A stretch of 64,000 nucleotides of DNA from Raillietiella orientalis (Eukaryota). The notes below the pieces were generated by a model, which saw nothing but the letters and a program-made list of their open reading frames with translations, did not search any database and had not been told where the DNA came from. Shown in pieces: positions 2,188 to 54,505 of this stretch. The stretch spans positions 2,542,001 to 2,606,000 of the forward strand of contig JAYWIR010000005.1 in the NCBI GenBank assembly GCA_036172245.1, in the 5' to 3' direction. Each line of letters opens with the position of its first letter. The stretch's first letter is position 1. Position numbers and translations under genes: made by a program.

Positions 2188-2295
2188 CTGCCCGCTATCC
2201 TGCAGGGGACTGGCCATCTCGGCGTTTGGCTGTTTTGAAGTGCCCTTCGCAGGAAGGGCAGCTCCGTGGTCAGTGAGGTCGTATTCGCTTAAATG

Positions 2296-7960: not shown

Positions 7961-8123
7961 CTGGACTTTCTGGGGATCACAGGTCGGAGTTTGAGCTCCT
8001 TCCACCAGGCAAGGGGCCTCCGTTGCTAAACTGGAGGATGCAGACGGATTGGCTTAGCCATCCGGAGGCTGCAGAGTATCTCCGCGAACACCTCCAAGGC
8101 TTCGCCAATCAAGAGCTCGCTTC

Positions 8124-19340: not shown

Positions 19341-22300
19341 ATCACCCGGGTGCGCCGGGGCGTTTATTACAAACTATCCGGGAACAGAGTTCCCGGACAA
19401 AGGGGAAAACAAGATACGAAAAGGGTGGGATCCCCGACACGCAGGTCGGTATGCTGAAAGTCCGGAACGGGAGAAAGGAGACCACAAATACACTACCATA
19501 TAAAATAAAAATAAAAATATAAAGGGCAGGAGACAAGGATCTTTGGTGAGTCCGTTCCTTCCTTTCAAAACCGGCGATGGATGCCGGCGATCTCTCTCCT
19601 TACGTCCTGTGGAAGATGGGCTCACTCGGCAGCCGACGACATGCTTGCGCTGGCTAATCCAATCGGCTGACGAAGGATGGCCAACTACTCCAGTTGTCGG
19701 TGGGCCTTGTCGATGGCGCGAATGCAACACACGGTTGCAACAACAGCACCTGAGGACAGGCCGCCTGGCGTGAAGAAGCGGCGCATCAAATCCCTCGCGG
19801 TTTCCCCCTGGTGCAGGAGAGCTGAGGGCAACCTCAGCCACAGTCCTAGGAGGGCACCGCAGTCCAAGAGCAGGTGCGGGAGCGTTTCCACTTCCCCGCA
19901 CCGCTTACAGTTTGGGGAGACAACTCCCCCGGAAACAAGGTTCGTGCGCTGGTTGGAGTGAAAACCCCAATGCTCTAGCATAATCACGTCTTGCTTCCAC
20001 GAAAGGGGGAACACAGAAGTGTTCAAACACGAGGGAGGGACCACAAGTTCTTCGGGAGGCACACTCAAGTGTTCGCTCCACCGAAGGAGTCCCTTCGGTA
20101 TGTGGCGAGGCGTGGCGGCATCTGCCAGCTCGCAAGTCCTCCAGCCGCCAATAGGTCGCGTTGTTCCTGCAATGGTGCAGGCGACCTCCCATCTCACCGG
20201 ATCGCAGCTGTCATCTCTTCCCCTGAGGGCTGACAGCGCGTCGGCGAGGGGCGTGACGGCCAGTCGAGTCCACTTCTCCTGGCTGTTGCACACTTCATCC
20301 ACCGTGCAGTACGGGGAGAGGTGAGCGCAACGGAGTTCCAAGAGGGTAACATCCTGGTGCTTTGCCCAGCCATGCAACGGTTCCTGCCGCCAGGCTTGAA
20401 AGTTCGTTGGGCGGCAGGAGATAAATTCCTGGGCTTCCAGGAGCCGGTAGAGGAGTTTCCAGGGGAAACCGAAACTTGTCGTGGGGTGCTCCGTGTGCGG
20501 ACGCAGCGACAGAAGTCCGTCGCTGCCGGTGCAGCGCCGCAGGAGCCGGCGCGCAGGAGCGCAACACGGAGTGGACCAAAGGTTGGTGCACAGCGCCAAC
20601 ATTCGAAGCTGCACGTGCAGCTCGATTCTTTCCAGCGTCAGGATGCCTGAACCAGCATCCCGACGCGGAGCCGCCAAGTCTTTCAGGCGGATCCTGGACC
20701 TCACAGGACCCAACAGAGCGTTCCTCAACAGGCTGTGCGCCTGGAGCTTCGCCGAGTAGGGGGGCGGGCAAACAAAAAACAGGGGGCGCAAGAGGGGGGC
20801 AACGAAGGTGTTCCATATCGCGGCCCGCTCCGACAGGAGGAACCTGCCATGCTGGAACCGGCTCAGCGCAATCGTAGCCTTCCGAAGGCACTCCGACCAC
20901 ACTTCTACTGGGCTGATGTTCCCCAGCGGAACGCCCAGATATTGGGTGGACGAAGCGGTCGGGATCCCCAGGCGGATCCAGTCGGACTGCCCCTCCCATG
21001 CCGCACCAATGGGTACGACCACCCTCTTGCTCCTGTTCACGCTCATGCCCGCTTCCCGGTGGATCCGCTCGAAGAAATCCTCGAGACTGGACGCCGGGGT
21101 GGTCATGGGTAAGAGGAGAAGCAGGTCGTCAGCATAGGCCGCCAAGGACGGCGTTCCTGGACAAAGACAATGCCGGTTGGCCAGCGTCAGCCTGTACGCC
21201 CTCTCTACCAACTCAAAGAAGGTGCTGAAGAGAAACGGGCTTAAACTGTCGCCCTGCCTGATGCCCCGCCGCACCGGCACGCCGTACACGTGGCAGCCGC
21301 TGAAAGAGATGGAAATGAGCGCGTGGCACCAGCATGCGCGCAAATACTCCACGAGCTGCACCGGGAGACCGAGACGTTCCAGGAACTTCAGCAGAAGATC
21401 CTGATTTACGCAATCGAACGCCTTATGCGCTCGAGGGCTGACGTCTTTTCTCGGTGCTCCTTGTGCCAGGAATTCTCCCCCAGTGCAAGCGTCGTGTGGT
21501 TTGGTGGTCGATCAGGCAGCGATGCCTGACGAGACCACCAGGGATGGCCAGGGGGCAGCGGCCACGCCGCCCCCAGTGGCAATGGAGAGCCAGGGGACGG
21601 CGGCAACGTCGCTTCCAGAGGCGATGGAGATGGGGGCATCCGCCCCCACAGAATCGGTCCCCGCTGCAGCGCGGGCGTAGAGCGCCATTGTGTCGGCGCC
21701 ATCGCCTGCAGCCGCGACGGAATTGTCGGCCTATGTAGAGGAGGGGTACAACCCCTCATTGTTCTACAAGGTAGGCAACCTTTATTCTTTAGAGAGCGCG
21801 CGAGTCTTTTCGAAGGGTATGCGCGCTCTCGATGTGAAAGAGGAGGAGCTCAACGCTATGACCATCCGCAGCGGGGGTCAGCACGTTGAGGTCATCTGCA
21901 AACAAGCAGAGCTGGCCCAACGACTGCTTAAAACCCCCGTTGTGATGGGGATGCGGAGGCTCCTCCCCACTACGGCGGACCGCAGCATGGTGGTCCACCT
22001 ATTAGGCGTAACCGCGCGAATGCGCAAAGAACAGGTTCGCGCCGCTCTGGAACAGTTCGGAACGGTCCACGCGCAGTGGACGAAAGTTAGTCCTTCCGAG
22101 GACTAAACGGGGCTGCAACAGGGCCTCACGGCTGCGCGCGTGACCGTTCGGGAGGGCTGCCCTCTTCCCCACAAACTGGTTGTCGAAGGCGAAACAGTCG
22201 ACCTCTGGTATGTGGGGAAGCCGAAATACTGCGGCTTCTGCAATACGTCAAGCCACCTCAAAAAGAGGTGTCCCAATGTGCAGTGTTAAGTATGCAGCAC

Positions 22301-25300
22301 AATGGGTCACACGAGGGAGGTGTAACCAAAAGCAGCAGTGCGGGTGGTTTCCAAGAGAATCCTTAAAAAACGCGCCCGGCTTCTGCAGAAAAGGCTGGCG
22401 GCGGAAGCTGCCGCGAAGGCTGTGCCACCCGCGCCCAAGACCTAGGCCGCACCCGAGACCCCGGCGACCAACACCAAAAAGTTGATGGAGCCGGCCAGGA
22501 GACTGGGTGGCAAGTGGCAACGGCCAAAAAATCAAAGAAGGAGAGGAGGATGAAAAAAAAAATCGCCTACCAACAGAAGAAGAAAGAGCAGCGTAGCGCG
22601 ACAATTAAAGAGTGCAGCGTCGACGTCGAACGCGTTCTCGATGTTGCCGAACGCTGCCAGAAAGAACTCGCCGCTATCGACGACCTCCCCTCTGTTGACT
22701 CTGTCAACAACGAGGGGAGCGAGCCGGCGGCGGCGTTCGTCATCGACACCACCATCGATGACGTAGCCTACGCGCGAGCCGCGGAGGAACTGGCTGCCTC
22801 GTTACAGCCAGAACCCTCCAAGGCAGGCAAGGCCGTAAGGCGTCCGGCCTCCCCTGAGCAGTCCCCCACTCCCGACCCCGAGGTGGAGGCCGGAAGCGCA
22901 GCCTCCGTTTCCACGGCACCCCGCAAGAAGCCTGGACGTAAGTCCACAAAGCCGAGGAAGCTCGTCTCCCCCGTCGAAGGGGAAGAGATGGTTTCCGCAA
23001 GCGAGGGTGCCATAAGCGTGGGAAACTCGCGGGACCCGTCGCCCGAGAGACTCCCACGCGCGGACACGAACGGAATGGAGGGGGTGGAGGCCGAACAGGT
23101 GCCTCAGGTGCCTGAGAAGGCCGAAACCCCCATGCATATCCCGCCCGCACGCAAGAGGTGGGCTCCCCCACACCTTAATCTTCCCAGCAGTAATGCCGGG
23201 AATCTCTCGCCGTCGTCTGAGCATCGCCGTTTAGAACGTGAACGGCATGACAGACGCCGCCAGGAGACGAGACATGGCCGCCCTTCTGGAGTCCTACGAC
23301 CTTGCGCTGCTGCAGGTGATCCAGGTGATCTCTGCAGAACAAGCGCAAGATATCGAACGGATCTCCGGAGGGCGGCTATGGTAGAGGTGTGGAAGAGCGA
23401 AAAGTTGCGGTGTCGCGTACTTGCTTCTGCCAGCCATCGAGGCCGCGGCTCTAAGCGTGCAGTTCGACGATCACGGTCGTGTCGGCCAGCTGACTCTCAG
23501 GGGGTCCGACTCGATCGATCTGATCATCACGAACGTGTACGCACCGAGCGGCGCGGACCTGATGAACAGGAGGGCGAGGAAAGAGTTTTTCCTTGCCCTC
23601 CGGCGCGACTGGCTGACCGAAGCAGGCGTGCAGAATGCCCATCTGGTTGCAGGCGATATCAACGTTCCCCTGAAACCAGATGGGCAGAATCCGGAGCGTG
23701 ACCTGGCCAACGAGGTGTGCATGGCGCTGCACACCTGTAATTTGTTGGCCAGTGCACCGGGGATGGAAGACATCATTGACCACGTGTTTCTTGACGAGCA
23801 CCTGTGCCCTCGCGTGGGCAGGCGCTGCAAATTACAATGCGAGCTGTACGACCATCGCCCGATAGACCTCGAGATCTATCCGCGCGACAGGGGCCCCCCC
23901 TCGTTATCGTGGCGTCTCCAAGGGGACTTCCTGAAGCACCAGGACGCGGCGGAACATCTTCGCACGTTCCTACGGAGTTTCAGGCTGCGGACACTCCAGG
24001 ATTGGGACCGCTTCAAGCGGTCGGTCCAGCAGTTCTGCGACCAGTTCCCTCTGCACCGCCTACCTACGGGTTTTCGGACCGGGGTCCGTAACGAACTAGC
24101 CTACCTGCAGGTCCGTTGTTACTCCAGGACCCCCGACATCCGCAGGCTGACAGAATACAAAGCGGGAGCCGAGAGGCAAGCCTGGCAGTCCGGATCGGCC
24201 AGCTTACTGGACGATCAGGGCCAGGAGCACTCGGCACTCGCCCAAATCCGCGGCCTGCTGCGGAGTTTCTACTCCTCTTTGTATGCCAGGGCACCTCCGG
24301 AGAGAAACGTCTCACGACTCCTACTTCCGGAAGGCGCTCTAGCGATCGGCGAGGAGGAGAGAAAAACCCTCGACGAGCCTTTCACGATGGACAAGATCCT
24401 CTTTGCCATCGGAAAGCTCAAGAGGCGCAAGGCTCCAGGGGAAGACGGCCTGCCCGCGGAGTTTTACCGAACTCTCGCGGCTGAGCTTACCCTTCTGGTA
24501 CAGCAACTCACCTTGCTGATTCGCGAGACAGGTGACGTTCCCGCATCGTTTCGTTCGGCAAAGCTGCGGCTCCACCCTAAGGGAGGAGATCTAAGGAGCA
24601 TGAACAACTGGCGTCCCATCACAATAGTGAATGCGGACGACAAGTTGCTAGCTAAGGTTTGGGCAGAGAGGTTGAGACGGGTTGCCAACAACTTCATCTG
24701 CTCGGAACAGACATATGCTGTTTCCGGGCGAAGCAACGAGGCGAACCTGTTCCACGCTTCCACCTGGCTAGAACTCCAACATCAGAGGAGCTTGGTGTGT
24801 AGCCGGAATTCCGGTGCGTGCGCCGGCAAGGGGTCGGATGGTCGGGTGGGGGAGGGAGCCCTTGCGGTCGCAATCGACTTGCGGAAAGCATTCGATTGCG
24901 TCGACCAGAATCTCCTTCTGGAGCTTCTGGAACGCTTGGGCTTCCCGGCCTCATTAGTAAGCTATCTGCGCTCCTGCGGGCGCGACGCGCTCATCAACGT
25001 TACTTTCAGCGGGCAGACCGTGCACGGCGTGCAGGTGCGGCGTGGGATCCGGTAGGGAGACAGCCTGAGCCCCTTGCTCTTCAGTACGTACTTTGAGTTG
25101 GTACTGAGAGCGTACAGGGGAACTCTAGCGCACCTTCCGCACGAATGTGCCGGTACGCCAGCCGTTTTAGCGTACGCGGACAACCTGCTGCTGCTCCCTA
25201 TGTCCACCCCGGCTGCGGCGATCGAGGAGTTCTTCGACCTTCTGCATCGGGGAACCGGACTTACGGTGACCAGGGCGAAGTCGTCAGTGATGCAAGTTGG

Positions 25301-27477
25301 TGCGGCGTGGGCAGGGCAGCAGGACTGGGTCCGTTTGGGGTTCCTCACGGTGAGGTACTTCAAGTACCTTGGTGTGCCCTTGGGAAAATACTCTCCTACG
25401 GAAGCGTGTTCCGGCTGCCTCCTAAAAGAAGAGACGGCGATCGGCCCGTTCCGAGGCGGCAGGTTTTTCCTGCCTGAATGGGCCGTGGTTTGAAACGTTC
25501 GCGGCTCCTCTCCTCCGCCCCCTGCTTTTTGTTTGCTCCCCCACAGAGAGAATTAAGAAACAGACGAACGACCTCCTCCGTATCGCCCTTTGGGGCAACA
25601 AGAGGGCCCGAGTCCGCTTAAAGGACTTGTGCGCTCCTCGTCGGGACGGTGGTCTGGGCCTCCTGACGCTGGAGCGGCTGGAGCTTCAGCTCCAGTTATG
25701 ATTGTCGGCACTTGTTCTAGAGCTGTGGTGCACATGTTGGTACGTCCCTGCACGTCTCCTTCTCCAGCAAGCCACCGGCAAGACGCGACTGACGTCGTTT
25801 CTTGCACTCCGTCGCCGCGTCAGCCGATGCGGACTTCAGCTACGGAGGGTGGCGGCGCTGTCACGGAAAAACCCAGGATTAGTCACCTGTCGCCCTTTGA
25901 ACGGTAGTGCCTGGTTGCAGGAAACCGTTCGAACGTGGGGACAGTTCGGCATGCAACCCTCCCAACAGGAACGAAGGTTCCTGTTTGGGGGTTACAGAAG
26001 TTGCACGCTCCGCAAGCTCCTGGAGGATCCAAAGAAGAGAGCGTGGGCAGGAAGAACCCCCCTCGCTGCTGCGCTGCCCTCCCTGATGGAAGATCTGGAC
26101 CGCGATGTTGCGGCGAAGTGGGAGGTTACAGTAACAATCTCCGGAAAGGAGAAGAAATAGGAGAGTGGAAGACGGGCTAGTTAACAGACGCTGCGACCTC
26201 GAGTACGTCTCTCCATGGACTTCTTCGCTGGGGCGTGCTTCTCGACGTTCCCATTGAACGTTTGAAGTGGCCCTTGGTACTAATGAACACCTCCACCCTC
26301 CCCTTAAAATGGCAGGAGTCGGCATTCCTGTTGCAGCACTGGGGACTCCCCTGCAACGCCCGCCGACACCACTGGACATGGTGAGCGGTGGACCCCAATT
26401 GCGTCCGGTGTGGGGAACGTGATTCCCTCCCCCACCTGCTAGTGGATTATGTTGCCCTTCGGACCCTTTAATTTCGCTTCGATGCGGCCATAGGCATCCC
26501 CTGCGGCAACCTCAGGGACGTTCTTAAAGCCCTCTTCGTTGCCGACGCCCTTCGGCCAGCGGCCTCGTTAGCAGCCCTGAGCTGTCTTCGCGGGATCGTC
26601 GCCGCCAGGAGTAAGGCTACGGGAGAACCACACGACAAGGGTGGCATCCAGCCAGCCTCCCAGTTCCTGAGGAGGGCGTCCCGATGGCCCCACCTGGATC
26701 CAGGAATACAGAAGGAGCTTGCCGGCATCCTGCAAAGGATCCAAGGGCCCCAACAGCAACTGTAATCCCTTCCCTTACCCTCCCAACTTTTCTTTTCTTT
26801 TTTTGTTTTGATTTTGTTTTTCCCCCTTTCTCCTGCTGCCGTGGTGGACCGTACCAGTCTGCGAACCGCTGACCCGGCAGGCTCCCTTGTTTCTTCGTGA
26901 GTGGCTGGAGCAATGGTCCATCCACTGCACGTCTTTGTAAAGGTTTATTAAACAATAAACGCCCCGGCGAAATCCGGGTGAAAATCGAACGCCTTGCGGA
27001 GATCGACCGCAACCGCCAAGGCACCCGGCGCTTCCTCAGGCAGAATGCAGCGACGCCTAGCCCTGGCAGCCGCAGATGCGGTTGCCTGGCTGTCGTGCGC
27101 CACGCGACGTTGCAGCTGGAGCCACGTGCGCGCGAAGAACAGGTTCGCCTCCATGGCCCTCCCGGGAACACTGCAAGTCTGCTCCGGACATACCACGGAT
27201 CCAGCGATCCAAACTAGGCGTGCGACCCAGAGCATGGAGAACAACTTGACGTCCGCATTCACCGAGGTGATGGGACGCCAGTTGCTTAAATGGCGCATGT
27301 CTCCGCCTTTCGGCAAGAGACGCACCCTTGCTGAGCGAAACGAGGCCGGGACATTGCCCGTCTCTCGCATCAACCCAGAAAGCCTCAGAACCAGGGGGAT
27401 GAGTTCCGCCGCGAAGCACTGGAAGAACTCCGCAGGCAGACCATCCTCATCTGGCGCCTTGCACTTCTTGAGGCTCC
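19339..27477 (-). mobile_element. F2 LINE (RT to 3' end), split at HKAFD by the 21428-26982 insertion
   Basis: 26983-27477 encodes RT up to DLRKAFD. 19685-21427 continues HKAFDCVNQ, QGDSLSP, YADD and CKRCGEVETLPHLLLDC. Terminal hairpin at 19342-19368. Confidence 0.9.
21428..26982 (+). mobile_element. Full-length F1 LINE (~5.55 kb) with 16-bp TSD, decayed
   Basis: TSD aatcgaacgccttatg (21412-21427) / aatcgaacgccttgcg (26983-26998). ORF1 ~21522-23193; ORF2 from TAATG 23191 (EN, RT); AATAAA at 26954 plus hairpin. Confidence 0.92.
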
Positions 27478-27619
27478 GCTATGCCGGAGTTTTGCCGCCG
27501 TTGCTAAGGCAGCGGCTGCCCACGGAGCCCCACCCGACGAGGCAGAGCTGCGGGCGTACGCCGCTAGCGGCTACAATCCCCCTCTGGCCTACAAGGTCAG
27601 TGCTGCGTACCGGGATGGG

Positions 27620-29862: not shown

Positions 29863-32292
29863 TGAATTGCGACGGCGCGCGTCACCATGGACGACCGGAG
29901 GCTCATGCCTTCGCAGATCCCCCTTGGTGACGTCGTCGTCTATCACCGGTTTGCCGGGCAAACCCCAGCTTGCGGCAACTGCGGGAAGGAGGGCCACCGT
30001 CCACGGAAGTGCCCAACACGCAGTTGCCGATACTGTAAGCTGCTCGGCCACTCGATTAACGAGTGCGCCTAGCTAAAACGAAAGAGGAGGGCGAGAAACA
30101 TCCCCGCAACATCGCCGTCCGCGCTGACTCCATCCGCCCCGTCGTCGGGGCAGAAATCCGGCGCGAACGAGGTTCCGCAGCGGACAAGCAAAAAGTCCGA
30201 TTGCGCGGGTGTGTCTGGGAGCAATGCTCTTCAAAAGCTTGCGCAAAACGACAAAAAGCTTCTCCAAGCTGCTAAAAACAAGCCCCGAGCAAAGCAGTCT
30301 GGAAAAAACCTCGGGCAGACTGCAAAACCGCCGCTTCCGTCCGCTCTCGCTCCGGAGAGAAATAGCGGTGGCACGCCCGGGAAGTACACCGGAGCTACAA
30401 AAAAGGGGTCGCGCGCCCCTTTGCCCGCGACAGGCAAGCCGGCCACGGCGGGCCGAACGCGAGCAAAGGCTGAAAAGCCTCGCGCGACCCCCGAGAATCC
30501 CGCCACTCTGCCCAAGCCTTCCGGTAAGGAGGTGCAAAAGGCAGACGTGGTGAAGGAGACACTGGCCTCCATCGCCGTATCCGAGGCCTTGGAAAGGATG
30601 CGAAGGACGCTGGAAGCCCTCGCGCCCAACCGAGGCAAATAGGAAGGCGGCGAGGATAACTGGACCTTCGTCGGGGGAAAGAAGGAGCGCAAATCGCGCG
30701 ATCCTTCCCACTTCCCGATCAAAAAGGTAGGCAGGGTGAAGAGGCAACCCCGCGCGCCCAGAAAGGCGCAAGGAAAAGCCTCTGCTGCCGCCGCGCGCGC
30801 CGTCGCAAACACCCGCGGCGAGAGGGGAGCCGCCGAAGCCGTGACCCCGAAAGGGAGATCGGCGACGAAGGCACCCTCTAAGAGTGCTGGACCAGCATGG
30901 GGCTGCCAGCAAAAAAAGAGGCAGGCAAAACGCCCGGCGCGCACGCGCAATTCGGCCTCCGAGCTGGAGTCCAAGGGCAGCTCTAAGGCACGCCAAGCCC
31001 CGGTCAAGGCCAGGGCTGCGCGCAAGCCAAAACTTGCCAGGCAAGAGCCTGATGCCGGGAACGGTTCCCGATGCTCCTCGGAGCCCGAGGCAATGGTCCT
31101 CGACTCCACCGAGCCGGCCGCGAGCGGCGCGGCGGGGACAGGAAGCGCTCGCGCTACCTCATCCGCCGTGCTCCCGGCTGATGCCTCGCCGGACGGGGCG
31201 AGGAACGCACCTCCATGTCCGTAGCAGCAATGCGCCGTCTCGCTTCTTCCCGTCGCGTCCGAGTGGCCTGTTGAAACGTCAACGGGCTGCAGGACAACGT
31301 GAAGAGGCGATTGGTTGTCAACGTCTTGCGCGACTTCGATCTGGCCCTGCTGCAGGAGATTCACGCACTCTCCGAGCAGCAAGCGGCCGATCTGCAAGTT
31401 CGCGCAGGCGGGACGCTCCATTGGAGGTCAGGCTCCCAGAATACCTGCGGAGTCGCATTCCTTGTCCGGGGCAGGGTGGCGGGAGCGGTGCGGAGCGTTT
31501 GTTTCGACGAGGAAGGTCGTGTGGGACAACTTGTTCTCAAGTGGTCCGAATCGATCAACCTTGTCGTCACGAACGTGTACGCGCCGAGCGGCTCCGCGCG
31601 TCGCACCGAGAAACTGGAGTTTCTCGAGAGACTGCGCGACCGCTGGCTCAGCAACTCCGGCCCCGACGTGGCTCACCTCGTAGCCGGGGATTTCAACGTC
31701 CACGCGCTATCGGAGGAGTCTCACCGTCTCCGGGAGAAACGGGTGGTGAACGACGTGTGCGCGTTTGTGCACGCCTCGAATTTGCTGGCCGACGATCCCG
31801 GGATGCGTGCTTTGCCGGACCATGTGTTCCTCGACGATCACCTGCATTGTCGGGTGGGTCGAAGAGGTTCCGTGCCGACCGAGCTTTCCGACCACTACAG
31901 GCTGGAGTTTGAGCTATTCCCGCCTGGCAAGGGCCCTCCGACGCACGTCTGGAGGTTGCCGGCCGACTGGCTGAGAAATCCGGTGGCTGCGGAGCACCTC
32001 CGCCAGTATCTCCGGACCTTGGCCGTTCGAGAGATCGTGGACTGGGACGATCTGAAAAGATCGATCCGCAAGTTCTGCAGCCGGTTTCCCTTGCGCCTGC
32101 TTCCCCGTGGCTTCGGGGAAGTCGTGGCCAACAGCAGAGTGTTTCTGCAGGGCCGCCAATTCTCCCGATGCCCGGACGTCCGGTACCTTGCGGAGTACAA
32201 GGCCAAGGCCGAGCGCCAGGTCTGGCAGTCAGGAGCAGCTTGTCTGCTCGACGACCAGGGCCTGCAGTGCTCGGGAGCGGCCGAAGTTTGCC

Positions 32293-34204
32293 ACCCGGAT
32301 ATGCCGGGGCATTTATTATTCTAATTTTCTACAAAAATTAGATAATAAAGTCTTTCGAAAGTTAATTGTGGGAAACACTTGGTTTTCCCACCTTGGTTGA
32401 CGTGTCGGTTGCCGGTGCATAGACCGGTTAGGTCCATTCCCGAGGCGCATGGGAAGGGAAAACTAAAACAAAAACAAACAAAAAGAGAGATAACGGGGAG
32501 GGAAACAGTTGTATGGGGAGAGGGGGGGGGCAGGGAAGGGATCACTGAGCGCCTGGGTCGGTCCTCCGCATCCTGTTGAGGATGCAGTCAAGTTCAGTTT
32601 TTATCGTGAAAGGTAGACGCCACCTTGTCGCCGTCTCTAAAGAGATCGTTGTCCAGTGGATGGCGTCCCTGCATCTTGGGCCTCTTCTTCTGGCGTGCCA
32701 CCTTTGCACAATGCCGCGCACGCAGCAGAGGACTGCTAGAGACGCAGCGGGGCGCAGGCCGTCACGCAGAAAGAGGCGACGGTAAATTTCCTTAGGGTCG
32801 CCTACTGGAAGATGGAGGATTGGGGCGATTCGACTCCAGAGTCCATCCAGGGCGACACACTCGAGGGTGAGATGCGGGAAGGTTTCTCTTTCTCCGCACT
32901 CGACACAGCGGGCATCCACATTTCCCAGTGTCCAGTGAGACAGGCGTGCTCTGCTTAACAGTCCCCAGTGCAGAAATAGCAACGCCGTCTCCTGCCACTT
33001 CAACGGAAGTGTGCCGCAATCCCAACACGCTGGGGGCCACTTCACCTCCTCCGGAGGTATTGCGAGCAGCTCTCCCCAGCGCGCAAGTTCGTGAGGCGGG
33101 ACGCTCGGGGTGGCAGCGTCCGTGAGCTCCCGAGTCGTCCACGCCTTTAAAGGTTTTTTCCTGCCTCGGATGAGGCAGGACACTTCCCACGATGCCAGCT
33201 CATTGCTGCTCCTACTGTTTTTCAGGGAGGACAGAACGGGGGCAAAGGGGCTGAAAGAAGCCCACAGGAACTTCCGGGGCGTGTTGATAATATCCTGCAG
33301 CGGCTGTCGAGCGTACGGTCCTCGTCGTAGGCAGTTGTATTCCGCCTCGCTCGTTCCGTTGATCTTAGCCCAAGCGGAAGCTGACTCCTGGAGCCAGGCA
33401 GTGCAGTTCGCGGGGATGCAGGAGATCCAGGTATTCTCCCTCATCAGGGCGACCATCTGGCGCAAATCGGGACCACAGTTGGAGAGGCTGCGCTGGTAGG
33501 CAACGAGGATCGAGGACAATCCTTCGCAGCCGGTCGCTCTTCTTGCGAGGAGCCGTGCAGGATCGCACCATGGCGTCAACCATAAGCTAGCCGCAAGCGC
33601 TAACTTTCGAATTCTTGTTTGAAGTTGGATGCGCTCCAACGTAAGGAGGCCCAAGCCACCATCCCTGCGTGGAGCGCACAAGTCTTTCAATCGGACTCGC
33701 GACCTCGCTGTGCCCCAAAGGGCAGTCCTCAAGAGGGCTTTGGTCCGTCTCTGTATGATGGGAGGGGCGGGACAAACAAAAAGTAAGGGGCGAAGGAGGG
33801 GGGCCGCGAACGCGTTCCATACCGCGGCCCGCTCCTGCAAGTAAAACTTGCCGTTCCGGAACGGGCCGATCGCCAACTCCACCTTTTGGAGACGGTCGGA
33901 CCAGGCTTCTGCAACGCAGAAGTCCCCCAACGGAACGCCAAGGTACTTCAAGCACCTGCCCGTGGGGATCCCCAAGCGGATCCAGTCCGGCCGTCCGGCC
34001 CACGCCGTATTGTTGAAAAGTTGTGGTGATGTTGGAACGATGGAAGATTTCTCTCTGTTCACCTCGAGGCCCGTCCCGCGGAGCAGCAACTCAAAGAAAT
34101 CTTCGAGCGCCGACGCCGGGGTGGACCCGGGGAGCAGGAGCAGAAGGTCGTCGGCGTAGGCCGACACGGCAGGCGTGCCGGGACACGAGCTTGGCAGGGT
34201 TGCC
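32293..34204 (-). mobile_element. 5'-truncated F5 LINE with 16-bp TSD
   Basis: TSD gcggccgaagtttgcc (32277-32292) / gcggccgaagttcgcc (34205-34220). ORF 32542..34167 runs from YADD to CVECGERETFPHLTLEC; terminal hairpin. Confidence 0.92.
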
Positions 34205-36926
34205 GCGGCCGAAGTTCGCCGCCTCCTAAAGCGCTACTACTCCTCGTTGTACGCGGAGGAGCCCACGGAACGCAGTCTCTCCGAGCTGCTTCTTCCGACG
34301 GGTAACCCTGCTATCGACGAGGAGGAACGCGCCAGATTGGATTGACCATTCACGGCTGAAGAAGTATCTTCTGCCATAGCGGGCCCGAAGAGGCGTAAGG
34401 CGCCTGGGGAGGATGGCCTGCCCGCGGAGTTCTTTCAGTGCTTCGCGGCGGAGCTCGTCCCCCTGTTGCTAAGCCTTTCCTCGCTGATGCGTGAGACGGG
34501 AGATGTTCCCGCTTCTTTCCGCTCAGCAAAGGTGCGGCTCCTGCCGAAAGGCGGTGATTTGCGCCACCTCAGCAACTGGCGTCCGATCACCTTGGTGAAT
34601 TCGGACGTCAAGTTGTTCTCCAGGCTATGGGTCGCGCGCCTGGGGAGAATCGCGAAGTCCTTGGTAAGTCCGGAGCAGACGTATGCTGTTCCGGGGCGGT
34701 CCATGGACGCGAATCTCTTCTTCGCGCGAACATGGCTCAAGTTGCAGCAGCGCGTGGCGCAGCAGAGCCAGGCAGCCGAAATCGCCGCTGCCAAAGGTAA
34801 GCGGCGGTGTTCAAGGCATGATGGAACGCCGGGAGCCTTAGCGGTAGCCGTCGATCTCTGCAAAGCGTTCGACAGCGTAAACCAGGACCTCCTTCTGGAG
34901 CTTCTGGAACGCCTGGGCCTCCCGACGCACTTCATCGCCTACTTGCGCTCCTGCTGGCGCCACGCGTTATGCTGTATCTCTTTCAGCGGGCGCCACGTGT
35001 ATGGCATTCCCATACGGCTGGGTATCAGGCAGGGAGACAGCTTAAGCCCCCTGCTCTTCAGCATCTTCTTTGAGTTGGTGCTGAGGGCGTACAGGCTGAC
35101 GCTGGCCAACCTGCCGAGCTCCTGCCCGGGAACACCGGCCGTGGCCGCTTATGCTGACAACCTTCTCCTGCTGCTGCCCATGTCCACCCCGGCGTCCAGG
35201 CTCGAGGACTTCTTCGAGCTCATTCGTCGGGCAGCGGGCCTGAGCGTCAACAGGACGAAATCAACCGTTGTACCGGTTGGCTCTACGTGGGAGGGGCAGT
35301 CCTACTGGATCCGCCTGGGGATCCCACGGGCAGGTGCTTGAAGTACCTCGGCGTTCCCTTGTGCGCCTTCTGTCCAGCAGAAGCGTGGTCGGACTGCCTT
35401 CACAAGGCCGAGACTGCTTTTGGCCCGTTCCAAGGCGGCAGGTTTCTCCTGTGGGAACGGGCCTTCGTGTGGAACATTTTCGTTGTCCCCCTCCTCCGTC
35501 CCCTCTTTTTTGTTTGTCCCCCTCCCTACTCGGCTAAGCGCCGGGCGCAACGCCTGTTGCGTAACGCCCTGTGGGGACCGGCGAGATCCAGGATACGCCT
35601 GAAGGACTTGGCGGCTCCTCGGCGGGATGCAGTATTGGGCATCCTGACGCTGGAGCGGATCGGACTGCTAGTGCAGTTCCGCATGCTGGCACTTTGCGCG
35701 CAGCTCTGGACCACTCCCTAGTGTGCTCTAGCGCCGCTGCTGCTGCGGCGCTGCACGAGTGGCGACGGACTACGTTCGTTGCATCTGCTCACGGAGGGCG
35801 CCCAGAGAGGATTCGGCTTCCCTTTGAAGCAGCTCGCCACGCTTCTAGGAAAGCATGAGTGGATCTCCTGCCGGCCGACGAACTTCAACGCCTGGAGGCA
35901 GGAAGCCTTATCGCCCTGGGCAGCGCAACAGGATGTGTCCCGTTTGGAACTCCGTTGCGTGAACCTTTCCTCATACTGTCCAGTGGGTTAGGTGGTGGAA
36001 GACCAGGACCAGTGGACACGCCTAGCCGCTACGCCACTCGCCGAAGCACTGTGTGCACTGATGGTGCGAGATGACAGTGACCTGCCGGCGAGGTGGGAGA
36101 TCGCTTGCGAAATCGCAGGCGAAACCCGACTGCTGGGCGTCTGGCGGACTTGCGAAGTGGCAGACGCTGTCACACCTCGCCTCCGTACCAAGGGACTTCT
36201 TCTGTGGAGTTAGCTCCTCGGGGTACCCACCGATGAACTTGTGGTCCCTTCTGCGTGTTTGGACGCGACTCTCTTTCCCCTTCGGTGGAAACAGGACGCT
36301 TTTCTGCTGGTGCATTGGGGTTTGTACTGCAACCAGCGGGCGCACCTGATTTCCAGGGGAGTTGCTTCCCCGAACTGTGCCCAATGCGGAGCGGTGGAAT
36401 CGCTTCCGCATTTGCTGTTTGAGTGCGGTGCCCTCCAGGATCTGTGGCGACGGCTGTCTTCAGCGCTCCTGCACCCCGGACACACCGCATTCGATTGGAT
36501 GCGCCGCTTCTACACGCGTGGCGGTCTTTCTCTTGGAGCGCTCGTCGCAATCATCTGCTGCGTCCGCGCCATTGTCAGGGCCCGCCACGTATTGCAGATG
36601 CGAGCAGTCCCAACTTCGGTCCCCGACACCGCAGCCTGCAACCTGCAAATGGCTGCCGGGTGGCCACACCTGGGAGCAGAAGTGAGGACGGAGATCGGCA
36701 GCATTCACCGCCGGTTCTGAGAACAGGAACGGTTAGACTGTATACCCCTATCCCCGCCCTCCCACCCAATTTATTTATTTATTGTCCCACCCCCTCCCGT
36801 TCCGAAATCTCAGTGTACCCGGCCTGCGTTCCGGGAAATCTACTCCCCATTTTCTGTTCCCCTTGCCTGGGAACACAGTTCCCAGTTGATATTAAGAATA
36901 AACGTTTCGGCGCAACCGGGTAATAA

Positions 36927-38137
36927 ACGACAACGCTGCATTCTTTAATTTGCTCGCTTGTCTGCTGTTTTTTCTGGCGGTACGCGAGCTTTTTCTCCAT
37001 CCTCCTCTCCTTCTTTGATTCTTTGGCCGTAGCCACCTGCCACCCAGGCTCCTGGCTAGTTCCCTCGACTTTTTCGGCGTTGTTCGCCGGGGTCTCGGGT
37101 GAGGCCTGGGCCTTGGGCGCGGGTGGCACAGACTTCGCGGCAGCTTTCGCCGCCAGCCTTTTCTGCAGAAGCCGGGCTCGTTTTTTAAGGTTTCTCTTGG
37201 AAACCACCCGCACTGCTGCTTTAGGGCACACCTCCCTCGTGTGTCCCATGGTTCCGCATACTTGGCTCTGCACATTGGGACACCTCTTTTTGAGGTAGCC
37301 CGACATATTGCAGAAGCCGCAGTATTTCGGCTTCCCCACATACCACAGGTCGACTGTTTCGCCTTCGACAACCAGTTTGTGGGGAAGAGGGCAGCCCTCC
37401 CGAACGGTCACGCGCGCAGCCGTGAGGCCGTGTTGCAGCCCCGTGTAGTCCTCGAAAGGACTAACTTTCGTCCACTGCGCGTGGACCGTTCCAAATTGTT
37501 CTAGAGCGGCGCGAACCTGTTCTTTGCGCATTCGCGCGGTTACGCCTAATAGGTGGACCACCATGCTGCGGTCCGCCTTAGTGGGGAGGAGCCTGCGCGT
37601 TCCCATCACAACGGGGGTTTTAAGCAGTCGTTGGGCCAGCTCTGCTTGTTTGCAGATGACCTCAACGTACTGACCCCCGCTGCGGATGGTCATAGCGCTG
37701 AGCTCCTCCTCTTTCACATCGAGAGCGCGCATGCCCTTCGAAAAGGAGTGCGCGCTCTCTAAAGAATAAAGGGGTACAACCCCTCATTGCCTACCTTGTA
37801 GAACAATGAGGGGTTGTACCCCTCCTCTACATAGGCCGACAATTCCGCCGCGGCTGCAGGCGATGGCGCCGACACAACGGCGCTCCACGCCCGCGCTGCA
37901 GCGGGGACCGATTCTGTGGGGGCGGATGCCCCCACCTCCATCGCCTCTTAGGGCGACGTTGCCGCCACCCCCTGGCTCTCCATCGCCTCTGGGGGCGGCG
38001 TTTCCGCTGCCCCCTGGCCATCCGTGGTGGTCGCGTTAGGCATCGCTGTTTGATCGACCACCGAACCACAGGACGCTTGCACTGGGGGAGACTTCCTGGC
38101 ACAAGGAGCACCGAGAAAACACGTCCGCCCTAGAGCG
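36927..38137 (-). mobile_element. F1 LINE 5' end and ORF1 N-half
   Basis: Reverse complement of 21428-22625; starts cgctctagggcggacgtg. Confidence 0.9.
37770..37823. repeat. Perfect 20-bp inverted repeat with 14-nt spacer
   Basis: aggggtacaacccctcattg (37770-37789) and caatgaggggttgtacccct (37804-37823). Confidence 0.9.
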
Positions 38138-40240
38138 CACAAGGCGGTCGACTGTGTAGACCAGGAACTCCTCTTGGATCTTCTGGGTCGCATGGGCTTC
38201 CCAACCTCCCTGATCACCTACCTGCGCTCTTGCTGGCGGAACGTGATGATCACCATCTTTTTCAGTAGACAAAAGGTGTAAGGCGTGCCGATACGGCGGG
38301 GCATAAGGCAGGGAAATACCCTCAGCCCCCTGCTCTTCAGCACCTACTTTGAGTTGATGCTGAGAGCGTACAGGGTGACGTTGGCTCCCTTGCCGAGCTC
38401 GTGCCCCGGCGCGCTTGCCGTAGTAGCGTATGCCGACGATCTTCTGCTCTTGTTGCCGATGTCCACCCCGGCAGCGGCATTCGAGGACTTCTTCGATCTG
38501 GTTAGCCGTGGGGCCGGGCTACTGGTAAACAGGGCGAAGTCGTCGGTGGTGCCAGTAGGTGTGGCGTGGGCAGGGCAGTAGGACTGGGTCCGTCTGGGGA
38601 TCCCTACGGCGAGGTGTTTCAAGTCCCTTGGTGTGCCGTTGGGGGACTACTCCCCTGCGGAAGCGTGGTCCAGCTGCCGCCAAAAAGTAGAGACGGCTAT
38701 CGGTTTGTTCCTCGAAGGCAAGTTTCACTTGCCGGAACGGGCCGCGGTGTGGAACGCCTCCGCGGCTTCCATCCTTCGCCCCTTGCTTTTGTTTGCCCCC
38801 TACTGTAGAATCGAAGAAGAGGACAAAGGACCTCCTCCGCATCGCCCTTTGGGGCAAGGGGAGGCCCCGAGTCCCTTTGAAGGACCTTTGCGCTCCTCGT
38901 CGGGACGGCGGACTTAGCCTCCTGACGCTGAAACGCGTGGAGAAACAGCTACGATGCGCACCCTCGCCATCGCAGCGAAGCTATGGAGCACCCCTTGGTG
39001 CACTCCGGCTTGCTTCCTGGCCAGCCGTGTGTCCCGGTGCAATGGACTGGCGTCTTTTCTTTTGAGCCGTTGCCGGAAGATGCGAAGATGCGGCCTACTG
39101 CTCGGGCGCATTGCAATTCTGGCCAGAAAGAACAGTTGGATGGTTTGCTGCCCCGCCAACTCCCCCGCCTGGCTGGAGGAGAACATTGGAACGTGGGCAG
39201 TCGTAAACCAGAGGAGCCACGAGACGTGGAATCGTCTCTGATGCAGCCCATACGCCCGCTGCACGCTGCAGAATCTCCTGGAGTGTCCAGCAAGAAGCAC
39301 GTGGGCAGAGACGACCTGCCTGGCTACGGTGCTGCCCTTCCTGAGGAGGGCGCTTCACAGCAGCAGGACGCCAAGGTGGCAAGTCTCCTGCTGCATCGAG
39401 GGACGGGAGAAGTTGATTAGCGGCTGGACAACGGGAGAACTGGCAGACGCCACGACCCCGAGCGTCCAGCCGCGAGGATTAGCAAGATGGTGCGAGCTGC
39501 TCGTCATCCCCAGGGAAGAGCTGAAGTGGCACCCGGTGATTAAAGAATCCAGGATCCTGCCACTCAAGTGGCAAAAGTCGGCGTTGCTCCTGTTGCACTG
39601 GGGTCTACCCAGCAACGCATGCCGCTTCCACTGGACGAAGGGAGCTGTGGATCCTGCGTGTGCCAGGTGCGGGAAGCGGGAGTCGCTCCCCTACCTTATT
39701 GTGGACTATGCTGCCCTCTTACCCCTCTGGGAACGGTTCGGGACGACCCACGGGCTCCCTACGGGCAGCGCCCCCAGAGACGTTCTGCCTCTCCTCTTCG
39801 TGCGGGACGCTCTGCAGCCAGCCGCAGCCCTCGCAGCCCTGTGCTGCGTCCGAGGCATCGTGGCGGCCTGGAGCGACGCCAACAGCGAAGACCGCGACAC
39901 GAACGAGAGGGAAGTCATCCCGTATGCTGTCAGCTTTATGCGGAGAGCTGCTCGATGGCCCCACCTGGGAAATATGCGGACAGACCTCGAGGGCTTCCTT
40001 CGACGGATGGGCCCTCCTCACAGCGTCCAGTGATCCCTTCCCTTCCCTCCAAACTCTTTTCGTTTGTTTATCCCTTTTATTTTTCTTTTTGTTTTTCCCC
40101 CATCCCCTTGCGCTGCTGAGGAGTGCCACGCCGGGCTGCGTCCCGGTGTCCCGACAGGTCCCGTGTCCAAGGCCGCAGTGGGGCCTTATACCACGTATGT
40201 GAGTTTTTCAAATAAACGCCCCGGGCGTACCCGGGTGATA
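38138..40240 (+). mobile_element. LINE 3' half from RT HKAVD to 3' terminus (possibly the 3' end of the F4 element starting at 17301)
   Basis: QGNTLSP, YADD, CARCGKRESLPY; AATAAA at 40211 plus hairpin. Candidate TSD acgcctcgagcggc (17287-17300) / acgccccaagcggc (40241-40254). Confidence 0.82.
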
Positions 40241-40373
40241 ACGCCCCAAGCGGCGCGGATCTGACGACCAGAAGGGCGAGGAGAGAGTTTTTCCTTGCCC
40301 TCCGGCGCGACTGGCTGACCGTGGTAGGCCTGTGGAATGCCCATCTGGTCGCAGGCGATTTTAACGTTCGCTT
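40241..40373 (+). pseudogene. F1-like endonuclease fragment (APSGADL...AHLVAGDFNV); host of the tandem F3 insertions, resumes at 61297
   Basis: Colinear with 23540-23670; the continuation QPDGRDHER at 61315 matches KPDGQNPER at 23675. Confidence 0.85.
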
Positions 40374-46300: not shown

Positions 46301-46314
46301 TGACCGGGTAAGAA
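40374..46314 (+). mobile_element. Full-length F3 LINE copy 1 (~5.9 kb) with 16-bp TSD, decayed
   Basis: TSD attttaacgttcgctt (40358-40373) / attttaacgttctctt (46315-46330). ORF1 from 40458 (CEQCGKEGHWGKEC, CRYCKESGHKIRKC); TAATG at 42415; EN, RT; AATAAA at 46285 plus hairpin. Confidence 0.92.
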
Positions 46315-46341
46315 ATTTTAACGTTCTCTTTCATGGGAGAT

Positions 46342-46348
46342 GGACGTG
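46342..46348 (+). promoter_or_regulatory. DPE-like GGACGTG motif near LINE 5' ends (representative; variants at 4276, 5277, 17080-, 17314, 21439, 38126-, 40385)
   Basis: Conserved across F1, F3 and F4 5' ends that are otherwise dissimilar; fits the DPE consensus RGWYV. Function is inferred. Confidence 0.55.
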
Positions 46349-49300: not shown

Positions 49301-49539
49301 CGCATACGCCAGGTGCGTAAACCTGTCGTCGTCAAGGCGTATTCCTTGGATACGTCTGCCATGGTGGACCAGTGACGAAACCGCTTCCATATAAACTACG
49401 AACAGCATCGGACTAAGGGCGTCTCCCTGACGGATTCCCCTTTTCATCCTGATGTCTGTCGTATGATTTCCGTTGATTCTTATTTTGCAGTACTCCCCTT
49501 CGAGATTCTTCCATACGTAGTCAGCGAAGTATTCTGGGT

Positions 49540-54307: not shown

Positions 54308-54505
54308 TTGTCACCCGGGTGCGCCGGGGCGTTTATTACAAATTATCCGGGAACAGAGTTTCCGGACAAAGGGGAAAACAAGATACGAAGGGGGTGGGAT
54401 CCCCGACACGCAGGTCGGTATGCTGAAAGTCCGGAACGGGAGGGAAGGGACCACAAATACACTACTATAAAAAATAAAAATAAAAATATGGAGGGCAGGG
54501 GACAG
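54308..54505 (-). mobile_element. 198-bp 3'-UTR-only F2 insertion with perfect 15-bp TSD
   Basis: TSD gggcattgctcttct at 54293-54307 and 54506-54520; nearly identical to 19339-19535. Confidence 0.93.

What the first reader, a model, noticed from the sequence alone, without database searches (positions are those of the whole stretch)
21412..38153. F1 inserts antisense at the RT (H/R)KAFD motif in two different host families
Seen: both F1 5' ends (cgctcgagggctgacg at 21428 +; cgctctagggcggacg at 38137 -) abut the opposite-strand His codon of HKA(F/V)D at the same nucleotide, yet the host RTs (19685-21427 and 38138-40030) differ clearly. Both F1 3' ends (1952 and 26982) abut aatcgaacgccttgcgg. 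Inference: at least two independent insertions; the 1952 junction could be an old duplicate of 26982.
Basis: partly seen in the sequence, partly recalled or inferred. Interest (0 to 1): 0.75.

Follow-up and report, generated by a model that had tools for sequence, protein, structure and literature searches.

The report
LINE inserting into other LINEs' RT
A retrotransposon family in this repeat-packed window has landed at least twice, independently, on exactly the same 13-base site inside the reverse-transcriptase genes of related retrotransposons, so it looks like a jumping gene that specifically targets other jumping genes.

Summary
F1 is a ~5.56-kb APE-type LINE. The complete copy (21428-26982, +) lies antisense inside the RT gene of another LINE. 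It is flanked by a perfect 13-bp direct repeat, AATCGAACGCCTT (21412-21424 and 26983-26995), the reverse complement of the K-A-F-D codons. Removing F1 plus one repeat copy in silico restores a 740-codon host ORF with no stop.

A second F1 5' end (38137, -) meets its host RT at the same nucleotide. The two F1 copies are 92.9% identical, but their host flanks are only 70.4% identical and fall in different RT lineages, so these are independent insertions. The third junction (1952) may be a duplicate of the first (F1 88.6%, flank 90.8%).

One correction: the "His codon" next to the F1 5' end is probably F1-borne or added. The other repeat copy in the same host reads Arg.

F1 is not alone. A second lineage sits at least twice on the endonuclease G-D-F-N codons, once as a repeat-bounded tandem. 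A third sits twice at one site in the EN-RT linker.

Best reading: sequence-specific, target-primed integration into conserved LINE coding motifs, which builds a nested LINE cluster. The source of the specificity is inferred, and no genome-wide census was possible.

The parts
21412..21424 (.). Left copy of the 13-bp target-site duplication AATCGAACGCCTT (antisense of the K-A-F-D codons of host 1)
   Evidence: It is identical to 26983-26995. Uninterrupted paralogues carry the sequence once.
21425..21427 (+). 3 nt (ATG) between the duplication and the conserved F1 5' end. They are probably the F1 5' terminus or added nucleotides.
   Evidence: The right copy of the duplication is followed by GCG, not ATG. 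F1 iii has GTG at the same place.
21428..26982 (+). F1 i, a full-length but defective APE-type LINE. Parts: 5' UTR; ORF1 ~21720-22957 with a CCHC region ~22170-22331; EN ~23235-24248; RT ~24417-25499; C-terminal zinc-finger region ~26145-26741; 3' end AATAAAC-hairpin-GGGTGAAAA at 26955-26982.
   Evidence: Pfam RVT_1. tblastn against intact sibling ORFs places the domains and shows frame changes near 25490 and 26145; there is an in-frame stop at 25053-25055. 3' motif. 3' hairpin.
26983..26995 (.). Right copy of the 13-bp target-site duplication
19340..21424 (-). Host 1, C-terminal part: RT from K-A-F-D through the C-terminal domain and 3' UTR to its own 3' terminus
   Evidence: Pfam RVT_1 E 2.2e-13. 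3' terminal motif at 19367-19340. Tree.
26983..27478 (-). Host 1, N-terminal RT part ending in ...VAVDLRKAFD. The host is 5'-truncated near 27478.
   Evidence: In-silico excision of 21425-26995 gives one ORF of 740 codons with 0 stops that reads VAVDLRKAFDCVNQD across the join.
36927..38137 (-). F1 iii, the 5' 1.2 kb of a second F1 copy (F1 positions 1-1199). It is cut off at 36926/36927 by the 3' end of another LINE (H3, 34202-36926).
   Evidence: 92.9% identity to 21428-22626..
38141..40240 (+). Host 2: RT from K-A-V-D (AGTCGACCGCCTT on the F1 strand) to its own 3' terminus. It belongs to a different lineage from host 1.
   Evidence: Only 70.4% identity to host 1 over the first 660 bp.
1..1952 (+). 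F1 ii, the 3' 1.95 kb of an F1 copy (F1 positions 3607-5555). It runs off the start of the window.
1953..2188 (-). Host 1b: the N-terminal RT fragment ending in ...DLRKAFD that abuts the 3' end of F1 ii. It is 90.8% identical to the host 1 flank.
61297..64000 (+). F1 iv, right part: an F1-like subfamily copy (81% to F1 i) with an uninterrupted site of its own (K-A-F-H at 62524). Its left part is 40241-40368.
40369..46314 (+). Context: Gfull-1, a complete LINE of another lineage. It is inserted in sense orientation in the EN G-D-F-N codons of F1 iv and is flanked by ATTTTAACGTT (40358-40368 and 46315-46325).
46326..61296 (+). Context: Gfull-2, a tandem second copy at the same site, followed by ATTTTAACGAT (61297-61307). 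It is itself interrupted by 47665-54791, by Z' (56549-57586, -) and by a SINE (60059-61016).
32290..34204 (-). Context: Z, a 5'-truncated LINE. Its 3' end abuts the EN-RT linker of a G-like host at the same position as Z' at 56549.

Best explanation
F1 is a family of APE-endonuclease LINEs (non-LTR retrotransposons; ORF1 with a CCHC knuckle; ORF2 with EN, RT and a C-terminal zinc finger; stem-loop 3' end without a poly(A) tail). It integrates sequence-specifically, by target-primed reverse transcription, into a 13-bp site, A(A/G)TCGA(A/C)CGCCTT. That site is the antisense of the K-A-F/V-D codons in RT motif A of sibling LINE families.

Inferred course of events:
1. The F1 machinery nicks the host sense strand just after ...AAGGCGTTCGAT(T).
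2. The freed T-ending 3'-OH pairs with the ...GGGUGAAAA tail of F1 RNA and primes cDNA synthesis.
3. The other strand is cut 13 bp away, after ...CGCCTT, which produces the 13-bp duplication.
4. F1 therefore always ends up antisense to the host RT gene and splits it at motif A.

By analogy with R1Bm, TRAS1 and Tx1L, the specificity most likely lies in the F1 endonuclease/ORF2 protein.

The target is a multicopy sequence whose variation is limited by its coding role in the host LINE. It therefore offers a renewable safe haven, and each hit disables a competing element. Other lineages in the window appear to do the same at their own sites, and this would build the nested LINE cluster seen here.
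For: Shown:
- Perfect 13-bp duplication around the complete copy.
- Paralogues with the site present once and intact.
- Excision of F1 plus one repeat copy restores a 740-codon ORF with 0 stops.
- The second 5' junction is in exact register in a host of another lineage: F1 92.9% versus flank 70.4%; tree.
- All 3 assessable F1 junction sets (i, ii, iii) are at this site, and the F1 5' terminus occurs nowhere else.
- The target pattern is found 7 times, only at RT K-A-F/V-D sites, against 0.41 expected.
- F1 encodes RT (Pfam) and a region 48.5% identical over 340 aa to a sibling ORF that Pfam scores as Exo_endo_phos at E 1.4e-14. The closest solved proteins are human L1 ORF2p.
- My own arithmetic: a second random hit at the same base and orientation in a 5.5-kb element has a chance of about 1 in 11,000.

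Parallel cases in the window:
- The G lineage sits on the EN G-D-F-N codons in two hosts, once as a tandem bounded by 11-nt repeats.
- Z and Z' sit at one position in the EN-RT linker. The near-identical G1 copy is unoccupied there.

From papers (abstract and passages seen): the R1Bm EN cuts both strands of a 14-bp site, and Tx1L targets the Tx1D transposon (PMC1919474, PMC6719617).
Against: - Only one F1 copy has both junctions. Copies ii and iii each show one end, so the constancy of the duplication length rests on a single complete insertion.
- Only 2 insertions are certainly independent.
- All F1 copies seen are defective or incomplete, so no intact F1 endonuclease could be examined. Pfam did not score F1's own EN region at E <= 0.01.
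- Two perfect target sites (44126, 58146) are unoccupied.
- Other families in the window show single, different sites, and two host-1-type 3' ends abut unrelated sequences. The cluster could therefore also reflect a regional preference.
- The nick sites of all families end in T next to an A-rich RNA tail, a weak and generic preference.
- The source genome was not available, so exclusivity of the site could not be tested.
Confidence: 0.75

Rival explanations
1. The site is chosen by nucleic-acid pairing rather than by a sequence-reading endonuclease. F1 RNA or cDNA carries its own copy of the conserved RT motif and pairs with the host LINE DNA at that motif, which guides where nicking or joining occurs.
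For: F1's own RT gene holds the homologous 13-mer with only 2 differences (AATCGAATGCTTT), so F1 RNA is complementary to one strand of the target. Every recurrent site in the window lies in a motif that the inserting element also encodes.
Against: The insertion is antisense and flanked by a clean 13-bp duplication with no extended homology at either junction. The terminal sequences of F1 do not resemble the target. The G lineage inserts in sense orientation and the Z lineage in antisense at other motifs, so no single pairing geometry fits all of them. No guide-like structure or known ribozyme was found at the F1 5' end.
Confidence: 0.12
2. F1 merely prefers this chromosomal region or LINE-rich chromatin, as centromere-seeking transposons do. 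On this view the shared junction position is a coincidence.
For: Every insertion in the window is into another LINE, and several families have one-off sites. Transposon clusters formed by chromatin-level targeting are described, and there the target-site duplications are not shared (10.64898/2026.09.17.752431, passages seen).
Against: The nucleotide and the orientation are identical in two hosts of different lineages, with a chance of about 1 in 11,000 per pair (own arithmetic). The same is seen for two further lineages at their own sites.
Confidence: 0.06
3. There was one ancestral insertion. The composite was then copied by segmental duplication, and the F1 parts were later homogenised by gene conversion.
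For: Copy ii and its flank are about as similar to copy i and its flank (88.6% and 90.8%). Mosaic identity between the G copies (85%, 92%, 97%) shows that conversion or recombination does occur here.
Against: For i versus iii the flanks are 70.4% identical from the first base beyond the junction, while F1 is 92.9%. Hosts 1 and 2 each have closer relatives with an intact site. This would require repeated precise excision, which LINEs are not known to perform.
Confidence: 0.04
4. The junctions are misassemblies of a highly repetitive region.
For: The window is an extremely dense nest with many unresolved head-to-head joins.
Against: The same junction type occurs three times with diverged sequence on both sides. 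The complete copy has a matching duplication, and its excision restores an open host ORF.
Confidence: 0.03

Closest known systems
R1-clade site-specific APE-type LINEs (R1Bm in 28S rDNA; TRAS1 and SART1 in telomeric repeats)
   Same: ORF2 has an APE-like EN. Integration is at one fixed sequence with a duplication of similar size: R1Bm uses a 14-bp region and its EN cuts both strands (PMC1919474, abstract and passages seen). F1 uses 13 bp.
   Different: The F1 target is the protein-coding RT gene of other LINEs, not rDNA or telomeric repeats. No sequence match to the R1Bm or TRAS1 EN structures appeared at E <= 0.01, and the hits were human L1. Clade membership was not tested.
Tx1L of Xenopus laevis (L1/Tx1 group), which inserts into the Tx1D DNA transposon
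   Same: It is an APE-type LINE whose specific target is another transposable element, and the EN is reported to be site-specific (PMC6719617 and PMC1919474, passages seen).
   Different: The Tx1L target is a DNA transposon. F1 targets a conserved catalytic-motif coding sequence of sibling LINEs, in antisense orientation. Phylogenetic placement of F1 relative to Tx1 was not tested because no reference sequences were at hand.
Zepp / Zepp-like (ZeppL) L1 LINEs of green algae
   Same: They form GC-rich clusters of nested L1-type LINEs, one per chromosome, at putative centromeres (PMC3446292, PMC8226300, PMC9940879; passages seen). This window is such a nest, and its LINEs have L1-like EN, RT and zf-RVT.
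   Different: The passages I saw give no insertion site or mechanism for the nesting. From memory only, Zepp has a poly(A) tail, whereas the elements here end in a stem-loop plus GGGTGAnAA. The original Zepp papers were not held. Neither the organism nor homology to Zepp was established.
Human LINE-1 ORF2p
   Same: It is the closest solved structure by sequence: the RT of a 69%-identical relative matches at E about 1e-39, and a sibling EN matches at E about 3e-6. The domain order is the same.
   Different: From memory, L1 has loose target preference (TTTT/AA), a poly(A) tail and variable duplications. F1 has a fixed 13-bp site and no poly(A) tail.

Membership tests
APE-type non-LTR retrotransposon (LINE), L1-like architecture | Reverse transcriptase domain of the LINE type | tested here: met
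   Pfam RVT_1 in F1 ORF pieces (E 1.3e-8 and 9.8e-4) and in hosts (E 2.2e-13, 8.6e-18). A close relative matches L1 ORF2p structures at E about 1e-39.
APE-type non-LTR retrotransposon (LINE), L1-like architecture | N-terminal apurinic/apyrimidinic-like endonuclease in ORF2 | tested here: met
   F1 23235-24248 is 48.5% identical over 340 aa to a sibling ORF that Pfam scores as Exo_endo_phos at E 1.4e-14. The motifs NVYAPSG and GDINV are readable. F1's own piece did not reach E <= 0.01 in Pfam; the copy is frameshifted.
APE-type non-LTR retrotransposon (LINE), L1-like architecture | Poly(A) or simple-repeat 3' tail | tested here: not met
   All 11 distinct 3' termini found by pattern end in AATAAAC, a short CCGG stem-loop and GGGTnAnAA, with no poly(A).
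APE-type non-LTR retrotransposon (LINE), L1-like architecture | Target-site duplication and 5'-truncated copies | tested here: met
   13-bp duplication around F1 i. 11-nt repeats around Gfull-1. Many 5'-truncated copies.
Sequence-specific LINE | Independent insertions at the same nucleotide and orientation | tested here: met
   F1 i and F1 iii are in register in hosts of different lineages. F1 ii is at the same site, but its independence is unresolved.
Sequence-specific LINE | Nearly all genomic copies at the target; few elsewhere | not testable with these tools
   The source genome is not available. 3 of 3 assessable F1 junction sets in the window are at the site. The protein search for junction-spanning ORFs found nothing.
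Sequence-specific LINE | Element-encoded endonuclease cleaves the target specifically | not testable with these tools
   This needs biochemistry. No intact F1 EN is present in the window.
Zepp / ZeppL LINEs | Phylogenetic grouping with Zepp within L1 | not tested
Database relatives were unnamed or only 23-29% identical.
Zepp / ZeppL LINEs | Localised clusters of nested copies | tested here: met
   The 64-kb window is almost wholly nested LINE copies on both strands. Chromosome-level localisation is unknown.

The most novel reading that the evidence does not exclude
The window may show a guild of sibling LINE lineages that parasitise one another. Each lineage would have a private, fixed integration site inside a conserved motif-coding stretch of the others:
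- F1: RT motif A, the K-A-F-D codons, antisense.
- G lineage: the endonuclease G-D-F-N codons, sense.
- Z lineage: one position in the EN-RT linker, antisense.

The targets are limited in how they can vary by the victim's own coding sequence. Each insertion recreates the site through its duplication, which allows tandem reinsertion. The result would be a self-assembling nested LINE cluster of the kind reported at algal centromeres.

The inserting lineages may shield their own genes through synonymous codons. F1 has AAA GCA where occupied sites have AAG GCG. G has GAC TTC where occupied sites have GAT TTT or GAT TTC.
Probability: 0.35. Interest if true: 0.85.

Novelty: new variant of a known kind. 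Interest (0 to 1): 0.66.

Why it matters
Site-specific LINEs are known for rDNA, telomeres, small-RNA genes, microsatellites and one DNA transposon. A LINE whose fixed target is the catalytic-motif coding sequence of other LINEs would be a new class of target.

It would also give a concrete sequence-level mechanism for two open points. One is why some LINEs pile up as nested clusters, as Zepp-type clusters do at putative centromeres. The other is how transposon lineages compete directly, since each insertion destroys a rival's RT or EN.

The idea is directly testable by a genome-wide junction census and by an EN nicking assay. It would also add a natural 13-bp-specific retrotransposition system to those studied for targeted integration.

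Tried and rejected
1. Ribozyme or known RNA at the F1 5' end: the whole-window Rfam search at gathering thresholds gave 0 hits. An E-value search of 21380-21760 gave only 8 sub-threshold chance-level hits, none a ribozyme. The MFE folds of the 5' and 3' ends were unremarkable (z = -1.7 each).
2. Looking for more junctions through predicted proteins that read from antisense F1 into the RT (residues 1-45 of the 608-aa ORF): no candidate found.
3. Naming the organism or clade: only 16 distant L1-like proteins at 23-29% identity, one unnamed 69%-identical RT with an intact K-A-F-D (P0017), and generic RT clusters in the Atlas. ARAGORN found no tRNA.
4. I first read three alignments ending at F1 position 2125 as a hot spot. 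Two of them (5164, 31592) are only coding divergence.
5. I first counted the two G 3' junctions as lying in different hosts. They are a tandem pair in one host, and the independent second host is W2 at about 5261-5270.
6. The idea that the element ending at 8122 and W2 share a site was rejected. Their sites are about 100 bp apart.
7. The Y-A-P-S-G site (17287-17300 and 40241-40254) may be the two ends of one insertion with a 14-bp duplication, so I did not count it as recurrent.
8. Z versus Z' alone could be an old duplicate (75% versus flank 73%). It was accepted as two events only because G1, which is 92-97% identical to G2, lacks Z'.
9. The self-avoidance count (3 of 5 CGCCTT sites occupied versus 0 of 6 GCTTT sites) gives a one-sided Fisher p of about 0.06 by hand, which is not significant.
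10. Literature searches and passages read turned up no description of a LINE targeting an RT motif. Higashiyama 1997 and Yamamoto 2003 were not held.
The prokaryotic genome collection was not scanned because it is irrelevant here. Structure prediction, complex prediction and the representative-protein search were not used.


Full report
WHAT THE WINDOW IS. The 64 kb (GC about 0.50-0.63) is an almost unbroken nest of related non-LTR retrotransposons on both strands (self-BLAST; map against F1). Pfam finds RVT_1 and zf-RVT in the better-preserved ORFs, and Exo_endo_phos and zf-CCHC in others. The nearest solved proteins are human LINE-1 ORF2p: E about 1e-39 for the RT of a 69%-identical database relative, and about 3e-6 for a sibling EN. 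Other database relatives are only 23-29% identical L1-like proteins (16 hits). All families share a 3' terminus of AATAAAC, a short CCGG stem-loop and GGGTnAnAA, without poly(A) (11 distinct termini; fold). Several families (F1, W, W2, G) also share a GGACG(T/A)G motif within about 20 nt of the 5' end. No Rfam family and no tRNA were found.

THE OBSERVATION. F1 i runs from 21428 to 26982 on the + strand. On its left is ...GCAATCGAACGCCTT ATG, and on its right is AATCGAACGCCTT GCGGAGATCGAC.... The 13-mer AATCGAACGCCTT is therefore present on both sides (21412-21424 and 26983-26995). Read on the opposite strand it is AAG GCG TTC GAT T, that is K-A-F-D.

Uninterrupted paralogues carry this stretch once. 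The two host halves align to overlapping coordinates in H3 (34862-34872) and in G1 (44123-44138). Seven RT copies in the window have an intact K-A-F-D, and F1 iv has an intact K-A-F-H. Deleting 21425-26995 in silico gives a single minus-strand ORF of 740 codons with no stop, which reads VAVDLRKAFDCVNQD across the join. F1 i is therefore a simple insertion with a 13-bp target-site duplication, antisense in the RT gene of host 1. The duplication could be 11-13 bp, because the F1 tail ends in A.

INDEPENDENCE. The second F1 5' end (36927-38137, minus strand) meets host 2 at ...ACAGTCGACCGCCTT GTG | CGCTCTAGGG, in exact register with copy i. The two F1 segments are 92.9% identical (1108 matches, 85 mismatches). 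The 660 bp of host beyond the junction are 70.4% identical (455 matches, 191 mismatches). In an ML tree of the 780 bp downstream of K-A-F-D (10 rows, none dropped), host 1 sits with H3/G1/G2, host 2 sits with X, and F1 i sits with F1 iv (95/99). Each host has closer relatives with an empty site, so one ancestral insertion is excluded.

For copy ii (1-1952), F1 is 88.6% identical to copy i and the 228-bp flank is 90.8% identical. That is what a duplicated composite would give. However, the host fragment ends at a different point in each (about 2179-2190 versus 27478), so the matter stays open.

By my own arithmetic, a second random insertion into a 5.5-kb LINE at the same base and orientation has a chance of about 1 in 11,000. 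The degenerate target occurs 7 times against 0.41 expected, always at RT K-A-F/V-D sites. The F1 5' 19-mer occurs only at the two junctions.

A CORRECTION. In host 1 the right copy of the duplicated site is followed by GCG (Arg), while the left copy is followed by ATG. That is two differences in three bases, next to 13 identical ones. F1 iii has GTG at the same place. The simplest reading is that these 3 nt belong to the F1 5' end or were added at integration. Some intact families do have His there (X: ATG; G1 and G2: GTG), so a host origin cannot be excluded for host 2. Either way the two junctions coincide.

ANATOMY OF F1. Mapping intact sibling ORFs onto F1 i by tblastn gives ORF1 at about 21720-22957 (CCHC region about 22170-22331), EN at about 23235-24248, RT at about 24417-25499 and the C-terminal zinc-finger region at about 26145-26741. 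There is an in-frame stop at 25053-25055 and there are frame changes near 25490 and 26145. This copy is dead. A 42-bp unit is repeated twice in the 5' UTR of both copies.

HOW IT MOST LIKELY WORKS. Shown: the duplication, the antisense orientation, the in-register second junction and the coding capacity. Inferred: target-primed reverse transcription in which the host sense strand is nicked after ...GCGTTCGAT(T) and the T-ending primer pairs with the A-rich RNA tail. The other strand is then cut after ...CGCCTT, 13 bp away. The source of the specificity is not shown. I favour the EN/ORF2 protein, by analogy with R1Bm, TRAS1 and Tx1L. R1Bm has a 14-bp site and its EN cuts both strands (PMC1919474, abstract and passages). 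An RNA- or cDNA-pairing mechanism is a lesser rival.

THE WIDER PATTERN.
1. G lineage. Gfull-1 (40369-46314) is flanked by ATTTTAACGTT at 40358-40368 and 46315-46325. Gfull-2 (46326-61296) follows directly and is followed by ATTTTAACGAT (61297-61307). The sequence outside the pair is one F1-like endonuclease gene read through G-D-F-N-V. A third, more distant G-like element starts at the G-D-F-N codons of a different host, W2 (5261-5270). Of 8 EN GD(F/I/L)N sites in the window, these 2 are occupied.
2. Z lineage. The 3' ends of Z (32290) and Z' (56549), both antisense, abut the same host position in the EN-RT linker (...GCCGAAGTTT| and ...GCCGGTATG|). G1, which is 92-97% identical to G2, has the site empty, so Z' is a separate event from Z.
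3. Other families show single sites, and one clean insertion (8122-9746) has a short duplication.
4. Much of the rest cannot be de-nested. Several elements meet 5' end to 5' end (4262/4263, 17097/17098, 27478/27479, about 34203). One 3' fragment (54309-54790) is joined to what may be the 5' end of a different LINE, as template switching would give.

COMPARISON AND NOVELTY. F1 works like the site-specific APE-type LINEs (R1, TRAS, SART, Tx1L). Like Tx1L, it targets another mobile element (PMC6719617, passage). It differs in that the target is a conserved coding motif of sibling LINEs, hit antisense. The setting resembles the nested Zepp and ZeppL clusters of green algae (PMC3446292, PMC8226300, PMC9940879, 10.1101/2025.03.28.645958; passages). 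Those passages give no insertion-site mechanism. Centromere-seeking LTR clusters are reported to lack shared duplications (10.64898/2026.09.17.752431, passages). Six literature searches found no report of a LINE that targets an RT motif. The original Zepp papers were not held, and supplements were not consulted. I rate this a new variant of a known kind.

LIMITS. This is one window with two certainly independent F1 events. Exclusivity of the site and the basis of the specificity remain to be shown.

Noticed in passing
40358-40368, 46315-46325, 61297-61307; elements 40369-46314 and 46326-61296; also 5261-5270: Two complete LINEs of another lineage (G) sit in tandem in the G-D-F-N codons of one F1-like endonuclease gene, separated and bounded by the 11-nt repeat ATTTTAACG(T/A)T. 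A more distant G-like element starts at the G-D-F-N codons of a different host (W2).
   Followed up: yes
32278-32307 and 56537-56567; empty sites 43467-43484 and 9989-10006: Two 5'-truncated antisense LINEs (Z and Z', 75% identical) have their 3' ends at the same position in the EN-RT linker of G-like hosts. Z' is absent from the near-identical G1 copy and is accompanied by loss of about 91 bp of the host.
   Followed up: yes
17287-17320 and 40233-40254: The Y-A-P-S-G codons of an F1-like endonuclease abut a full-length 5' end (W, 17301) in one place and a 3' end (host 2, about 40240) in another. These may be the two ends of one 23-kb, heavily interrupted element with a 14-bp duplication (2 mismatches).
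   Followed up: partly
24885-24899 and 62524-62538 versus 21412-21424, 38141-38153; 42876, 55943, 7769 versus 40354, 5258: The inserting lineages differ from their targets by synonymous codons at their own copy of the site. F1 has AAA GCA where occupied sites have AAG GCG. G has GAC TTC where occupied sites have GAT TTT or GAT TTC. This could be self-avoidance, but the counts are too small (3 of 5 versus 0 of 6 for F1).
   Followed up: partly
60059-61016 (minus strand): An insertion of about 950 bp lies in the 3' UTR of Gfull-2, flanked by the 10-bp repeat CGCCCCTCTT. It has a T-run at its left end (a poly(A) tail on the minus strand), internal short repeats and a tRNA-like GGTTCGAA box near its head. 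It is probably a tRNA-derived SINE mobilised by a poly(A)-type LINE. ARAGORN called no tRNA.
   Followed up: partly
4262/4263, 17097/17098, 27478/27479, 34202-34204: Pairs of LINEs meet 5' end to 5' end (minus-strand element on the left, plus-strand on the right), each with its own 3' end in a different host. This is what two target-primed cDNAs joined to each other would give, with loss of the DNA between the two targets.
   Followed up: no
47665-54791, especially 54309-54790: A 7.1-kb block interrupts Gfull-2. It starts with the 3' end of a lower-GC, more distant LINE family (minus strand, RT ORF 47432-49564; relatives at 12164-15619). It ends with a 480-bp 3' fragment of a host-1-like element (92.5% to 19338-19538) joined, in the same orientation, to sequence that appears to belong to the upstream end of that distant LINE. 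This may be a template-switch chimera.
   Followed up: partly
21547-21630 and 37936-38018: A 42-bp unit is repeated twice in the 5' UTR of both F1 copies (80-85% matches). A long hairpin lies just upstream at about 21501-21540.
   Followed up: no
26982-29612 (+) and 19685-21511 (-): Long stop-free frames run across element junctions (876 aa and 608 aa). They combine the antisense of one element with the sense of another, so they are artefacts of GC-rich sequence and not genes.
   Followed up: yes
27479-27720: Element Y joins about 130 bp of an ORF1 start (71% identical to positions 200-317 of the G-like 5' region) directly to RT sequence 35 bp upstream of K-A-F-D. It is therefore an internally deleted copy. 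The joining segment has GT...CAG ends that look like splice sites.
   Followed up: partly
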